NCBI GenBank assembly: GCA_964016885.1
Contig: CAXHJY010000661.1
Coordinates: forward strand, 14,157-78,156
DNA length: 64,000 nucleotides
Source: Eledone cirrhosa
Lineage: Eukaryota
Reading direction: 5' to 3'
Part shown: positions 32,441 to 52,500 of the stretch, piece after piece
How the letters are laid out: the number at the start of each line of letters is the position of its first letter
Numbering within the stretch: position 1 is the stretch's first letter
Program-made: the position numbers and the translations under genes
The notes under the pieces: generated by a model
Seen by the model: only the letters and a program-made list of their open reading frames with translations
The model's database searches: none
What the model was told of the DNA's origin: nothing

Positions 32441-33603
32441 TATAGCCGTAATTTGCAATCGAGTATGACTTGGTAGTAATTATCAGGCATTTGCTAATAA
32501 TTCTAGGCCCTCCTGCAGTTGTGAGCAGACAGACTCTTTCGATTCGTCCTCTCTCGGTAGGATTTGAGCTTTGTATAGCTGATGGATTATAGTACTCAGC
32601 AGGATTTGAACTCAGAACTTAAACAGCTAGAATAAATGCTACAAAGCATTTTGTTCATACAAATTCCAGCATTGATGTCTACACAAAACTGATTGGCCCC
32701 TGTCCACGATAACCAGGCAACAACATAGATTAAAATAGCTTTATGTTGTGCCAAAAGTTGCGATCGGTTGATAGTATCAGCAATGGAAAGACCAATAGAA
32801 ACATTGTTTCCTTGGTCCCACTCAGCAAGTGAATGAGGTCTGGGATCTTGTCAATCTATCAAAGCAATGATATTTGTTCTGACTCTAGATTCTGAGTTCA
32901 AATTCTGCCAAGGTGTATTTAACCTTTTATCCTTCCATGGTCGATAAAATTAAGTATCAGTCAAGAACCGGGATTGATTTAATCAACATTACATTTCCAC
33001 CAAATTTGCTGACCTTTTGCCAAAATTAGAAATCAATATCACTTTACTGTTCCATATAAATTGCAAGGAAACCATATGAAAATATGAAGAAAAAATAAGA
33101 AGGTGATCAATACTTTTCTAAAATAAAAGATGTTCTCAATATACATATCTCCCCAACTCTCACGCAACTATATATCTCTCTCTCCCCCTCTCACACAATT
33201 ATATATATCTATCTCTCTCTCTCTCTCCCTCTCACACAACTATATATCTATCACTATCTCTCCCCCTCTCACAACTATATATCTATCTCTCTCTCCCCTT
33301 CTCACATAACTATATATATCTCTCTCTCCCTCTCTCACAACTATATATATCTCTCTCTCTCTCTCCCTCCCACACAACTATATATATACTACTATATATA
33401 TATATATATATATATAACGAAGGAAATGTGGTAAGCAGCCAGATGGACCATAATGCACCAAAGTACTCAATACTTAGGGTAGTAGAGTGGGTAATAGGAA
33501 CGAGTGGGACCCCGACGGCTGAGCTCAAGCCGTTTCGACGGCTAATCCGTCCAGAATTAGCCGTCGAAACGGCTTGAGCTCAGCCGTCGGGGTCCCACTC
33601 GTT

Positions 33604-33656
<53 letters not shown>

Positions 33657-34401: not shown

Positions 34402-34601
34402 TGTTATTCCGGGTTGAGTCGGAGGTAACCACAGTAAGTAAGGTACTCAATACATTGCAGAGTATAAAAGTTTTAATATAGATGAGATTCTACAGGACTA
34501 GAACTGTTTCATTCTTTAGAAATCATCAGGAATCCCTGAGATTCCTGATGATTTCTAAAGAATGAAACAGTTCTAGTCCTGTAGAATCTCATCTATATTA
34601 A

Positions 34602-35540: not shown

Positions 35541-36350
35541 TCTCTCTCTCTCATATATATATATAATATAGAAAAGGCTTCTACAGGACTAGAACTGTTT
35601 CATACGGGAGAAATCATCAGGAAGCCCTGATGATTTCTCTCGAATTAAACAGTTCTAGTCCTGTAGAAGCATTTCTATATTAAATAAATATAAGAGATAT
35701 AGTCGATATGTCTCATATGAAATAATACAGCCAATTTTCCACACAATCCAATTAGTTAGCACCCCGAATGTTTAATTAGGAATATACTCACTTATTTCCT
35801 AATGTTTGTTGAGTGAGTTGGGATTTGGCCGGAGTATCGCTAAAAGCTTTCTCCGATAATGTATTTATTTATATATATATATATATATATACACACAGAT
35901 TTAACAAGTGTGTTAACATCATGACCAAAACAATTCTAACCCTTCCCCAGAAAATGTAAAAGAATTTAGCTAACTATCTATTATTATCAGCCTTATAAAT
36001 AGCAGAAAAATAAGTGGGGTGAGGGGAGAAGAAAACCAAAGAATAGGAGATAGTTTTCTCAATATCATCTATTCTATAATTGGAAGGTGGGGGGAAAGAA
36101 GCGAAAAGGGTCATTTGCCCACACCCAAACCACCCGACAGACAGGCATATTATTGCACCTAGTCTCTCCTCTATTTCCTCACCCCATCGCTGCTCTCTTT
36201 CTCCGCAATTCTGCCCTACCCCCCCTCTTCTTCCTAGTCCTCTACGTATGTATCGTTTAACTGAAAGTAATATAAAATGACACAGATTGTGAGCCATCTG
36301 AACACATTATATCCGGTGAAAGCAATCATGTGGAACTACAAAGTTATCTG

Positions 36351-42327: not shown

Positions 42328-42505
42328 AGTAAAAAATTGAACGGGAACAAAACAGAGAGGCAGTACGAACAAAGGTTTATTAGTTTCACGCTCTTGAGAG
42401 TGGGGTGGTGGTGGGGAACAAAAAGATGAGTATTGACGTACCTGGGAGTCGAACCCACATCTTTGGTTATCCGGACCACTGTGCTACCATTTACACCAAC
42501 ACAAT
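42328..42505 (-). mobile_element. Chimera: tRNA-like head + T5 + PLE-type 3' segment
   Basis: 42435-42505 folds as a degenerate cloverleaf (D stem gtgt/gcac, T arm tggg ttcgact ccca). 42328-42419 matches 25222-25312. Confidence 0.7.
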
Positions 42506-42974
42506 ATGTGTGTGTGAGTGTGTGTGTGTGTGTGTGTGTACAAACTTAACTATAGAACAAAATCGAAGACATAATCAAACTAGTTGACCTTAATAAGAAT
42601 GATGTTTTTCCAATGAGTTAATTCTGTAACTATCGAAGCTTCCTGCTGAAGACTTCTCCTTTTAATTATTCTAAACATGACAGACTTATGTATGTATGAT
42701 ATTTATGTTGAATTAGACAAATCTACATTATAGTTCTTCTCTGGATGAATGCCCCACCCCCTCGTATACAACTGTATATTCAGTATGCATTTTCCTCAAT
42801 CAGAAGAAACACAGATTTTTTCCTATGAAATCAATCTTTGTTCTTTGTTGAGGTAAGTTCATATTTAGTTTGACCTCGTCATCATCTTCGTCTTAGTTTT
42901 CGTTGGATGAACGAAAGAATCATATTAAAAATGCAAACAAAAAAAAAAAAATACAGGAAGAAATAATAATAATG

Positions 42975-49591: not shown

Positions 49592-52500
49592 CTTTGAAGA
49601 TATCCTTCTCTCCAGCAATCTTTCTCTTCTTTTGTCTCTCACTTATCTTTCTTTCTTTCTTTCTTTACCCTCTCTCTTTTTTTCACATCCATCTTCTATC
49701 ATTTACCCCCCGCCCCACACCCTTTATAACTTCTCCCTCTTCATACCCCACCCCATCCACCACCACTCGTTTTCGTTTTTCAGAAAAATTGATGGATTTT
49801 TCAGAGATATTCACTTGGAAAGCAAAAGCAAACAAATAAATAAATATAAAAAAATTAAAATAATAAATAAATAAAAGAAAAAGAAAATAAAGGAAAAAGA
49901 AAAAAAATAGACAAAAAGAATATTGTATGTATATATATTTTTGTTGTTTTATATAACATCTTCAGATCTTATTTTTTCCCTCCTTCTCTCGACCCCAGAA
50001 CGTTAGGTCTTCACCTCACCACCCATATATCTTGTTTTCTACTTTGCTCTGTATACCAACTACAATGGATGTATATATATATTATCAACCTTTACGCTCC
50101 AAGGCACCCATCCTAACTGTTGTTTTGCCTTTCTTACTTCAGTTTTCTTTCATTTTCTTCATTTCTTTCTTTCCCCACCAGCACCAGCGCCACCGTCGCC
50201 AGCGACGACGGCCCCCGCATTTATTGTTTGTAACTCGTTAAAGACATTAGTTACAGCATCTCCCTTCTGGGTCCTTGGACATAACAATACTCTCCGTTTT
50301 TATCCCACGCATTCAGAAGTAGGAGGTGAACTACTTAAGCATCTAGTGTCTATATATATATATATACGTTATTCCGGGTTGAATCGGAGGTAACCACAGT
50401 AAGTAAGGTACTCAATACATTACAGAGTATAAAAGTTTTAATATAGATGAGATTCTACAGGACTAGAACTGTTTCATTCTTTAGAAATCATCAGGAATCT
50501 CGAGATTCCTGATGATTTCTAAAGAATGAAACAGTTCTAGTCCTGTAGAATCTCATCTATATTAAAACTTTTATACTCTGTTATATATATATATATATAT
50601 ATATATGTTTGTGTGTGTGCCGGGTTCAATCGGGTTTCCTGGTGATTTCCTTCGAACGAAACAGTTCTAATCCTGTAGAAGCCAATTCTACATTAAATTA
50701 TATATATATATATTGTAAAGTGTACGACGGCTGAGCTATTGCTCTTTCGACGGCGAATGGACACTTCAGTTATCCATTTGCCGTCGAAACGGCAAGAGAT
50801 CAGCCGTCGGCCACTAACTCTTTACACAATTTACACTCTACTTACCTAAGTATAGAGTACATAGCTGAACAGTGTTCTTACTAATCTAAACTTTGTATAT
50901 AAAGCCTGTTGACGACTTTCTTAGAAGAGGCACAGCAACTGGTCGAAAGGATTGGGTAGAAAAAGGACTACCTGTTAGCTTATTCGTGAGTTTGTCTGGA
51001 TAGTTGGTATTTTAGTCAACCGTTGGCTCGCGTTACCTCCGCAGCAGATACCAAAGCTTCAATGTAAAATAATGGTATGGTATGGTATGGTATGGACCCG
51101 TAACTCCCCAGGAGTCGTAAAGGCGCCATATTGACATACGGCCTTTCTAGAGCATCTTTTAAAACTATCTCCTCTTTAGGCCTGAATAAAGCAGACTTCC
51201 TTCAGAGATGGATAGAGAGAGTGAGAGAAAGGAAGTGAGAAAAAAATATAGAGGAAGAATCGACCCCAGTACTGGACTGCTATGTTTATATGGACCATAA
51301 ATGGGTGAAAAGCAAAGTTGACCTCGGCTGGATTTGAACTCAGAGAGCCGAAATAACTACTATAAAGCATTCTATCCGACGTTCTAACGACTCCACCAAT
51401 TCGCCGCCTATTCTAGGCGTAGATTGATATCCCACCGCACCCCTCGTAACTTAACTCACAATAGGGTTGCAGGGATGATTTTATGTTTTAGTTATTTTAA
51501 ACCAGGCAGAGTTCATCGTTTTCCAAGTCTGAATAGAACCGATTTCTTCTGGAGAAAGACAGAAGGAAAGAGAGAGAAAGGAAATATAGAAGAATTGACC
51601 TCAGTACTGGACTTTATTGACCTCGAAATGATAAAACATCGGTTGGATGTGAATTAAGGGAGTGCAGAGAGCCGAAACGAATACCATAAACTATTCTATC
51701 CCACGTTGTAACAAATCTGCCAATTTCCAACCTTATGTATATATAAAAAAATCTTTTATAATCGGTTGGCGGTTGAATAGCGGACAAGAGACAGCGGTAA
51801 TAACTGTTTCTACGTTTGACACAAGGCCAGCAATTACCCAGTGCATTACTGGTACTTTATTTTATCGACCCCGTAAGGATGAAAGGCAAGAATAACGGCA
51901 GACCTGCTAACCTATAGAATCTCAAACGAGGAGGACCATGAATAAAAGTGCCCCAAAACGGAGAAATGAGACAAAATGGGGTGATTTTGCATAATGAAAG
52001 CTATACCCATTTTCACTGGAGAAAACATCTCTCACCTACCCCAAGGTAGGTGGGAGATCTCCCCGTCAGACGAGGAGAGTTGATAGGTCTGTAACGGGAC
52101 CATATACAACTAAGTAAACAGACGTATAAGAACGTAAACTCCTCTCATCATACGAAGAAAAATAGAATTTATTGCAATAAAGTATAAGTACCACCCCCCA
52201 CCAACTCTACAATATTCATGGCAATAAGGAAACAAAAAGGGAGTGGAAAATAAGAAAAAGAGTAAGAAAAATAAGGGAATTAAGGAACGAGAGGAGATGC
52301 AGGAGTGGGGGTGGCAACACACGTTACAACCCAGTCTAAATGATGTTTCAACTACGCCACACGGATGAAATGGCAAATATACTGCTGCGGAGAATTGGCA
52401 GCGACACCCGCTGCGACAGTCACTCCACTTCACTGAGCTCCTACCTCAGGTGGGCTCATGTCTTTTCGATTTTATAAATGAATCCGGTATGGTATGGTCC

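What the first reader, a model, noticed from the sequence alone, without database searches (positions are those of the whole stretch)
42328..42505. tRNA-like head fused exactly at a predicted hammerhead cleavage site (possible Penelope-mobilised SINE or RNA-ligation chimera)
Seen, minus strand: cloverleaf-like tRNA sequence, a short trailer ending TTTTT, then GTTCCCCACCACC... running into (TA)n. This ~92-nt 3' part matches 25222-25312, where it begins at the first base after the HHR triplet (GAAACGTC|GTTCCCC). Known: HHR cleavage leaves a 5'-OH, and U6/L1 chimeras can form by RtcB ligation of U-tailed Pol III RNA. Inference: this is a genomic trace of in vivo cleavage followed by ligation or template switching to a Pol III transcript, possibly a SINE family with a PLE tail.
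Basis: partly seen in the sequence, partly recalled or inferred. Interest (0 to 1): 0.78.

Follow-up and report, generated by a model that had tools for sequence, protein, structure and literature searches.

The report
Small RNA fused at ribozyme cut
A tRNA-like RNA sequence is joined to a Penelope retrotransposon tail exactly where that element's hammerhead ribozyme is predicted to cut, and ten U6 RNA copies in the same genome sit at the predicted cut sites of six such ribozymes, which is likely a fossil record that these ribozymes cut in living cells and that the cut ends get joined to other RNAs.

Summary
Observation confirmed. The 92-nt tail is the 3' end of a Penelope-like element (PLE; 1,692 copies match a 23-nt tail word). 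The head is a terminated tRNA-like Pol III unit from a separate 270-bp tandem repeat. This is not a SINE family: the junction pattern finds 2 loci, with different linkers. The breakpoint is not chance. A third head copy joins a second family's hammerhead cut site. Of 53 dispersed U6 copies, 10 end in exactly five T's joined without linker at predicted cut sites of six hammerhead families, one of them this tail's sister subfamily; I recognised none joined elsewhere in these families. Among 90 sampled tail copies, 17 start at +2..+9 and none at +1..-34. Best reading: in vivo hammerhead cleavage, likely RtcB-type ligation to U-ended RNAs, then PLE insertion into (TA)n. Template jumping is the main rival for this copy. 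No cleavage or RNA data were obtained. I found no U6-hammerhead fusions in print (10 searches). The scan earlier noted a similar tRNA tandem repeat and one shark switch at a hammerhead site, but no U6 series.

The parts
42435..42503 (-). tRNA-like cloverleaf, tRNA positions 3 to the end of the acceptor stem (positions 1-2 missing), with A box 42498-42487 and B box 42455-42445; copy of a 270-bp tandem repeat unit
   Evidence: stems 7/7, 4/4, 4/5, 5/5 in intact copies; Rfam tRNA 42.4 bits in L039, L146; period 270; 83 of 84 identical to L039
42420..42434 (-). 10-nt trailer and TTTTT, a predicted Pol III terminator; in ordinary copies of the family the sequence goes on CCATTTC
42328..42419 (-). 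PLE tail, from +1 of the predicted hammerhead cut to the fixed 3' end (ACTATA); AATAAA at 42381-42376
   Evidence: hammerhead core upstream in 25 of 30 loci; full element L126
42296..42327 (-). (TA)n run at the 3' end, the target type of this family
42504..42540 (-). (CA)n...ATAT 5' flank; no hammerhead half and no duplication specific to the head
25313..25342 (-). Minimal type I hammerhead of the same PLE family: helix I 5' side AC at 25342-25341, core from 25340, predicted cut between 25313 and 25312
25222..25312 (-). Ordinary copy of the same tail, still attached to its hammerhead

Best explanation
This is a one-off chimeric retrocopy in which a U-ended tRNA-like RNA sequence is joined to the PLE tail at the predicted hammerhead cut, likely because the ribozyme cut the PLE RNA in vivo, the 5'-OH end was likely ligated to the small RNA by an RtcB-type ligase, and the PLE protein then likely copied the hybrid into a TA repeat. 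Shown by sequence: identity of both halves, junction position, fixed 3' end in (TA)n, and the same junction type in U6 and head fusions of six families. Inferred: (1) a tandem PLE transcript is cut at GUC, leaving a 3' product that starts HO-GUUCCCC; (2) the head is a Pol III transcript stopped at its T5 signal, still carrying its trailer; (3) the two RNAs are joined end to end; (4) reverse transcription starts internally at ACUAUA, 92 nt downstream of the cut, primed in (TA)n, and runs through the joint almost to the head's 5' end. That the ribozyme cut made the end I put at about 0.85; that the joint was made by ligation rather than by template jumping is the weaker step.
For: U6 census with no filter on the partner: 85 motif hits, 30 in a tandem gene array and 55 dispersed = 53 loci, all 55 read. 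10 of 53 join at a predicted hammerhead cut with exactly five T's and no linker (L179/180, L188, L190, L193, L202/203, L204, L208, L220, L223, L234; six families), and 1 more probably does (L212). Rfam confirms U6 above cut-off in 8 of the 9 of these loci scanned; L190 is too short, and L161/L179 scores E=0.004. L234 joins the sister subfamily of this very tail at the same GUC. The detector fires at 1 of 1,200 off-site positions. T-run of exactly five: 10 of 10 hammerhead partners against 16 of 33 SINE/LINE-like partners, Fisher P=0.003. Mature U6 ends in five U's with a cyclic phosphate, and RtcB needs a 5'-OH partner (PMC6789731, passages). RtcB circularises hammerhead-cut retrozyme RNA in vitro (PMC7229834, passages). 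Head fusions: 3 of 4 sense-strand head copies that stop at the T-run are joined at a hammerhead cut, in two families. Family 1 cliff: of 90 consecutive copies, 17 start at +2..+9 and 0 of the 55 that pass start at +1..-34; P=5e-10 against -1..-30 and P=2e-4 against +10..+39. Family 2: 26 of 87 breaks in -2..+13 fall in the +1 class (18 on the strictest count), against 5, 2 and 0 at the next three G's; P at most 1.5e-5 (100 of 1,156 rows scored by eye). Three family-2 copies carry untemplated T- or A-rich inserts exactly at the cut (L177, L236, L239). Family 4 helix I covaries (10 copies of one pairing, 2 of another).
Against: No cleavage assay and no RNA data. This hammerhead has only 2 contiguous pairs in helix I, and metazoan minimal hammerheads cut poorly in vitro (PMC4209133, passages). 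In the anole PLE, cleavage was not needed in vitro and no RNA-seq reads ended at the site (PMC11167929, passages). Plain truncations of family 1 do not peak at +1: about 4 of 85 scored rows against about 43 at +8 (100 of 242 rows, by eye), and the C-rich tract at +4..+20 could itself stall the enzyme. 2 of the 3 head fusions carry 6-8 extra AT-rich bases, which ligation does not explain. A cyclic phosphate on the head RNA is not known. 10 U6 copies in this genome join the 5' start of SINE-like elements, ends that RtcB should not accept, so U6 also joins by other routes. The head search excluded partners with C in the first three bases, so it could miss joins inside the C-rich tail. Only family 1 was tied directly to a PLE reading frame; family 7's helix I rests on one reference with 2 pairs.
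Confidence: 0.55

Rival explanations
1. The hammerhead cut made the end, but the joint was made by the PLE reverse transcriptase: on reaching the 5' end of the cut RNA it jumped to the 3' U-tail of the tRNA-like RNA, sometimes adding untemplated bases.
For: Linkers in 2 of 3 head fusions (L093/L129, L146). Untemplated inserts at the family-2 cut. +1 also joins to PLE-derived RNA pieces (L096, with an oligo-A end; L106/107, a 295-bp tandem unit that starts at +1). U6 joins to SINE 5' starts with variable extra bases. End-to-end jumping is reported for R2 (title seen in a reference list; details recalled).
Against: The window joint is clean with five T's, as in all 10 U6-hammerhead joints, whereas other U6 joints vary from 3 to 10 T's. 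Template jumping has not been shown for a PLE enzyme in the passages I read.
Confidence: 0.3
2. DNA-level coincidence: an ordinary 5'-truncated PLE copy happened to end at +1 and was joined, with deletion of target DNA, to a tRNA-like repeat already present at this TA site.
For: Both families are abundant and share the TA target. Truncations near +1..+9 are common (17 of 90). A GTT-type template would give 2 nt of microhomology with the T-run (2 of 68 copies).
Against: It needs the head to break at its terminator and the tail at the cut site together. The same double precision recurs in 2 more head fusions and 10 U6 fusions; five of those U6 loci or more have GTA before the cut, so no T microhomology. 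About 13 events start at +1, against 1,095-1,692 copies.
Confidence: 0.1
3. A PLE-mobilised SINE family with a tRNA head and a PLE tail, spreading from a master copy.
For: The anatomy is SINE-like: Pol III promoter boxes plus the 3' end of an autonomous element.
Against: Only 2 loci match head end + up to 14 bases + tail start, and they differ in linker and tail subfamily. Of 30 best head loci only the window copy carries this tail in the part that was shown. The T5 terminator lies before the tail.
Confidence: 0.03
4. Assembly artefact that joins two repeats.
For: Both halves are high-copy, and the junction was not checked on raw reads.
Against: Thirteen analogous junctions at biochemically meaningful positions lie on different contigs; there is no homology at the joint to mislead an assembler.
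Confidence: 0.02

Closest known systems
U6/LINE-1 chimeric retrocopies formed by RtcB ligation (PMC6789731, passages; wider survey PMC11838501, passages)
   Same: A complete 3' end of a Pol III RNA, ending in a U-run, is fused in sense to a 5'-truncated retroelement tail and inserted as one piece; a 5'-OH partner is required.
   Different: The partner is a Penelope-like element, and the 5'-OH comes from the element's own ribozyme, so junctions fall on one nucleotide per family instead of being scattered. In the window copy the head is a tRNA-like repeat transcript, not U6. PMC11838501 has 0 occurrences of 'ribozyme' or 'Penelope'.
Minimal hammerheads in PLE pseudo-LTRs (Cervera and De la Pena 2014, PMC4209133, part 1 of 4 and passages)
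   Same: Type I motif with a minimal palindromic helix III in the pLTR; the U3-A8 core variant occurs in families 2, 3 and 7 here.
   Different: That paper states there is no in vivo evidence of cleavage. Helix I here is 2 contiguous pairs, not 4-5. Here the genomic junctions mark the cut site.
Animal non-LTR retrozymes (PMC7229834, passages; Li, Clavereau and Pollet 2026 preprint 10.64898/2026.07.22.740005, part 1 of 5 and passages)
   Same: Hammerhead-cut RNA ends are RtcB substrates; short tandem units are thought to be PLE-mobilised. The head's parent family is a tandem, TA-targeted unit with inverted arms.
   Different: Retrozyme ends ligate to themselves to make circles; here they are joined to foreign small RNAs. 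No hammerhead was found in the 270-bp head unit. The preprint has 0 occurrences of snRNA, RtcB or tRNA.
SINEU and other SINEs with small-RNA heads (PMC4494074, passages and section 19)
   Same: Small-RNA head on a retroelement-type tail; independent chimeras are thought to seed such SINEs.
   Different: By that paper's own test (shared junction from a master copy versus independent chimeras of an abundant donor) this case is the second kind, not a SINE family.
Neptune-like endonuclease-bearing PLEs (PMC8557442, passages; mechanism in PMC11167929, passages)
   Same: DKG motif, CX2-5CxxC linker, pLTR, hammerhead, microsatellite target, and a fixed 3' end that fits internal initiation.
   Different: Clade was not tested by a tree. 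The one full copy read (L126) is frameshifted.

Membership tests
Penelope-like element (donor of the tail) | One ORF with PLE-type reverse transcriptase followed by a GIY-YIG endonuclease | tested here: met
   L126 fragments carry PADKGGAVV, GVAMG, YIDD, a CX4CxxC linker and endonuclease-like pieces; atlas hits RVT_1/HTH_animal clusters at 0.95-0.96. Pfam gave 0 hits on the four frameshifted pieces, so the endonuclease call rests on motifs, partly recalled.
Penelope-like element (donor of the tail) | Pseudo-LTR: the 3' end repeated upstream of the ORF | tested here: met
   L126 has hammerhead + tail at both ends, 4.7 kb apart; the upstream copy runs on into the element.
Penelope-like element (donor of the tail) | Hammerhead in the pLTR and microsatellite target | tested here: met
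   Core upstream in 25 of 30 loci; tails end at ACTATA followed by TA repeats, except the pLTR copy L007.
Penelope-like element (donor of the tail) | Placement in a named clade (Neptune) by RT phylogeny | not tested
   No tree built; motif resemblance only.
Minimal type I hammerhead | Core CUGANGA / GAAA / NUH with helix II and minimal helix III | tested here: met
   Window 25340-25313.
Minimal type I hammerhead | Helix I of 4-5 bp | tested here: not met
   2 contiguous pairs next to the core; a separate upstream GGAAC can pair with the first five bases after the cut.
Minimal type I hammerhead | Self-cleavage at the NUH triplet | not testable with these tools
   Only indirect genomic evidence.
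tRNA-derived SINE family | Pol III head with A and B boxes plus a 3' tail from an autonomous element | tested here: met
tRNA-derived SINE family | Many copies sharing one head-tail junction | tested here: not met
   2 loci, different linkers and tail subfamilies.
U6/L1-type chimeric retrocopy | Complete U-ended 3' end of a Pol III RNA fused in sense to a 5'-truncated element | tested here: met
   Window copy and 10 U6 loci.
U6/L1-type chimeric retrocopy | One insertion event, shown by a shared target-site duplication | tested here: inconclusive
   Flanks are CA/TA repeats; longest shared word is 5 bases.
U6/L1-type chimeric retrocopy | Ligation of a cyclic-phosphate end to a 5'-OH end before retrotransposition | not testable with these tools
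   Needs RNA end chemistry and RtcB depletion.
Non-LTR retrozyme (parent family of the head) | Short tandem units | tested here: met
   Period 270 in L058; tandem and inverted copies.
Non-LTR retrozyme (parent family of the head) | Type I hammerhead in each unit | tested here: not met
   No canonical or U3-A8 core with helices on either strand of two units of L058.
Functional tRNA-Ser gene (head) | Long variable arm and U33 before the anticodon (recalled features) | tested here: not met
   Variable loop is 4 bases and the loop reads CCGGATA; ARAGORN's Ser(GGA) label comes from the anticodon only.

The most novel reading that the evidence does not exclude
PLEs in this genome run a cut-and-religate cycle: the pLTR hammerhead cuts the tandem transcript, the host tRNA ligase normally rejoins the ends (circularising the RNA without a scar), and U6 or tRNA-like fusions and tailed inserts are the mis-ligated by-products. 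U6 retrocopies would then be a natural, genome-only probe that maps active ribozyme cut sites to the nucleotide, and the 18-locus U6 hot spot in a SINE-like element would mark a cut site not yet recognised.
Probability: 0.35. Interest if true: 0.86.

Novelty: new variant of a known kind. Interest (0 to 1): 0.73.

Why it matters
[quoted passage not shown] Here germ-line insertions record the cut site to the nucleotide in six families, including weak-looking motifs with 2-bp helix I or a U3-A8 core. The test needs only an assembly and can be repeated in any PLE-rich genome. It also points to the host tRNA ligase as a likely partner in PLE RNA processing, and shows how a PLE-tailed SINE could be born.

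Tried and rejected
SINE-family reading: rejected. Separate insertion of the head into a PLE: rejected, since no hammerhead half lies upstream and no duplication flanks the head. Cut at the downstream GUU: not called, helix I cannot form there. A peak of plain truncations at +1 in family 1: looked for and not found. Rfam and ARAGORN on the window: no hits. Pfam on L126 pieces: 0 of 4. Hammerhead in the head unit: none. One detector call among U6 partners (L221) was a TA repeat and was dropped as false; L180 and L203 were merged with L179 and L202 as second arms of the same insertions. Rows dropped as indel false positives: 15 of 100, 13 of 100, 1 of 17, 11 of 20 (5 more were ends of inverted arms). 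L102 (+1 join to family 4, antisense, 3-base microhomology) was not counted as an RNA-end join. RNA evidence: no RNA holder listed. Contigs of three runs laid on the element: no listed piece spans the junction, most pieces not shown, so uninformative; the junction remains unchecked on reads. Rfam on 9 other +1 or nearby foreign flanks found no further small RNAs at gathering score. Literature searches with no report of U6- or tRNA-hammerhead fusions in PLEs; subscription journals are not covered and no supplements were read.

Full report
Observation. On the minus strand the window reads (CA)n-ATAT, an 84-nt tRNA-like head (42503-42420) ending in TTTTT, a 92-nt tail (42419-42328) and a 32-nt TA run. 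The tail aligns to 25312-25218 at 92.9% and the alignment stops at the base after GAAACGTC. The motif at 25340-25313 has a hammerhead core, a 4-bp helix II, a minimal palindromic helix III and 2 contiguous pairs of helix I. My detector (core, helix III, NUH, at least 2 helix I pairs) calls this GUC and not the GUU three bases on. The window lies in a 3.0-Gb genome.

The tail is a PLE 3' end. Of 30 loci fetched with the element as query, 25 have the hammerhead core upstream; tails end at ACTATA followed by TA repeats. L126 is a full, frameshifted copy: pLTR, an ORF with PADKGGAVV, YIDD and a CX4CxxC linker, a long 3' region, hammerhead, tail and (TA)n. An RT fragment matches RVT_1/HTH_animal clusters at 0.95-0.96; Pfam found nothing on four fragments. 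Exact tail words occur 1,095 and 1,692 times. The fixed 3' end fits internal initiation as described for the anole PLE (PMC11167929, passages).

The head comes from another family. It is part of a young 270-bp unit (1,302 candidates; period from L058) that forms tandem and inverted copies in TA repeats and normally goes on past the T-run. Intact copies fold as a cloverleaf and score as tRNA (42.4 bits against 29; ARAGORN 28 of 30 loci), but the 4-base variable loop and C33 argue against a working tRNA-Ser. No hammerhead was found in the unit. The window head runs from tRNA position 3 to the T5 signal, which is the span of an unprocessed, terminated Pol III transcript (inference).

Not a SINE family. 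The pattern head end + 0-14 bases + tail start finds 2 loci: the window and L093, which is 5'-truncated, has 7 T's plus an 8-base linker, and belongs to another tail subfamily. They are independent events.

Where do tail copies begin? 242 of 1,095 copies lack hammerhead letters at -8, -4 and -3. In the first 100 rows, scored by eye, 15 were indel false positives; of the rest about 43 start at +8, 11 at +7, 9 at +3 and only 4 at +1, nearly all after TA repeats. So plain truncations do not peak at the cut. All 17 copies with the tail intact from +1 and no hammerhead were read: 1 false positive, 2 at -2/-1, 7 TA-flanked at +1, and 7 rows (6 events) with other sequence, namely two head fusions, a PLE fragment ending in extra A's (L096), a 295-bp tandem unit that starts at +1 (L106/107), a family-4 piece with microhomology (L102) and a short filler (L104). 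In an unbiased sample, the first 90 of 1,692 copies, 18 start at +39..+10, 17 at +9..+2, none at +1..-34, and 8 between -35 and -200 (L284, called +17, looks like a +1 variant). The drop across the hammerhead is significant (P=5e-10 against -1..-30; P=2e-4 against the downstream rate). This fits templates that end at the cut and are joined to TA repeats a few bases short by microhomology, but a stall in the C-rich tract could give a similar picture.

Where do head copies end? 20 copies have non-family letters after the T-run (the pattern excludes C in the next three bases). Eleven are long T-runs or internal deletions and 5 are ends of inverted arms; of the 4 sense copies that stop there, one is flanked by TA only and 3 are fusions. 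The third fusion, L146, is a full head plus a 6-base linker joined to a second TA-targeted family exactly after GUC of that family's hammerhead, which has a U3-A8 core, 5-bp helix I and long helices II and III. In family 2, 299 copies begin at or within 2 bases of +1 without hammerhead letters (false positives included). In the first 100 of 1,156 rows for -2..+13, 13 were false positives and 26 of 87 fell in the +1 class (18 after removing ambiguous ones), against 5, 2 and 0 at the next three G's. Three copies keep both halves with an untemplated T- or A-rich insert exactly at the cut (L177, L236, L239), which is hard to explain without cleavage and rejoining.

U6 as an independent test. One family-2 copy carried a U6 3' end at +1 (L161), so I listed all exact matches to that 27-base motif: 85, of which 30 lie in a tandem gene array and 55 are dispersed, 53 loci. 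All 55 were read. Ten loci join, with exactly five T's and no linker, at a predicted hammerhead cut: L234 (sister subfamily of the window tail, same GUC), L179/180 and L188 (family 2), L202/203 and L204 (family 3), L190, L208 and L220 (family 4, three variants), L193 (family 6) and L223 (family 7, weak helix I); L212 is a probable eleventh. I recognised no U6 join elsewhere in these families; 9 loci have TA or unidentified partners. The detector fires at 1 of 1,200 off-site positions, and family 4's helix I covaries. The other 33 loci join elements that I classed by eye as SINE- or LINE-like; their T-runs range from 3 to 10 and equal five in 16 of 33 (Fisher P=0.003). Families 2-7 are PLE-type by anatomy (TA ends, inverted arms, type I hammerhead); only family 1 was tied to an ORF.

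Mechanism. Mature U6 ends in five U's with a 2',3'-cyclic phosphate, and RtcB joins it to 5'-OH but not 5'-triphosphate RNA (PMC6789731, passages). Hammerhead cleavage leaves a 5'-OH (established chemistry), and RtcB circularises hammerhead-cut retrozyme RNA in vitro (PMC7229834, passages). The clean five-T joints therefore fit ligation followed by PLE-driven insertion. For the window copy the joint is also clean, but its two sister fusions have linkers and the head RNA's end chemistry is unknown, so template jumping stays a real rival (0.55 against 0.30). That the cut made the end is common to both (about 0.85). All steps of the mechanism are inferred; no RNA or cleavage data were obtained.

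Comparison and novelty. It works like a U6/L1 chimera and is not a member of a SINE family. The parts are known: small-RNA chimeras, PLE hammerheads, RtcB on hammerhead ends. The combination, ribozyme-defined junctions that record cleavage in the germ line, did not turn up in 10 searches, which miss subscription journals; supplements were not read and could hold such cases. In the passages read, in vivo cleavage of animal PLE hammerheads is described as lacking evidence or unclear. Earlier scan notes on other genomes describe a tRNA-bearing PLE-type tandem repeat and one switch at a hammerhead site; I did not check them and they are not counted as support.

Verdict. A real, single-copy chimera; the SINE idea fails, the cleavage idea holds up well beyond this locus. 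New variant of a known kind, interest 0.73.

Noticed in passing
window 1-3385: Tandem array with a period of 474-482 bp; each of 7 units has a type I hammerhead-like motif with a 5-bp helix I, so it looks like a non-LTR retrozyme array.
   Followed up: partly
window 13727-18182: Inverted pair of another PLE: RT with DKSG and YVDD (weak RVT_1 hits), CxxC linker and GIY-YIG-like C-terminus; related hammerhead-like motifs at 13688, 20693 and 20771.
   Followed up: partly
L178, L183, L185, L187, L194-L196, L198, L200, L205, L209, L210, L217, L219, L224, L225, L227, L228: 18 of 53 dispersed U6 copies join the same point of one SINE-like 3' part with short variable linkers. No intact upstream copy was among my loci; it may mark an unrecognised cut site or that element's 5' end.
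   Followed up: partly
L189, L192, L206, L211, L213, L215, L216, L222, L226, L232: 10 U6 copies join the 5' start of tRNA-type SINE-like elements, with variable extra bases.
   Followed up: no
L032-L060 (for example L058 1966-2309): The head's parent family is a young, ribozyme-less 270-bp tRNA-like tandem repeat that inserts into TA repeats with PLE-type inverted arms, a candidate non-autonomous PLE passenger.
   Followed up: partly
L127 / L106-L107 (G000:C12:8973221-8973550): Tandem 295-bp units that start at the hammerhead cut and run through the pLTR into the element's 5' region, as expected from a small RNA circle or repeated jumping.
   Followed up: partly
L253, L255, L258, L263, L292, L302, L307, L309, L321: 9 of 68 family-1 hammerhead copies have a C-run in place of the three bases after the cut, probably an older subfamily with a dead ribozyme.
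   Followed up: no
window 25428-25468: The 25222-25468 copy is itself composite: a piece of the element's 5' region is joined to the pLTR about 115 bases upstream of the cut.
   Followed up: no
window 9396-10200, 20362-20500, 33380-33620, 34491-34583, 35582-35620, 50456-50547: Copies of hammerhead families 2, 3 and 4 lie in this window, several as inverted pairs.
   Followed up: partly
L157: A PLE-type ORF piece (SDKTGNLY) ending in AAA is joined to +1 of family 2.
   Followed up: no
L230-L231 (G000:C19:31.78-31.84 Mb): Tandem array of about 30 U6 genes at roughly 1.8-kb spacing.
   Followed up: no
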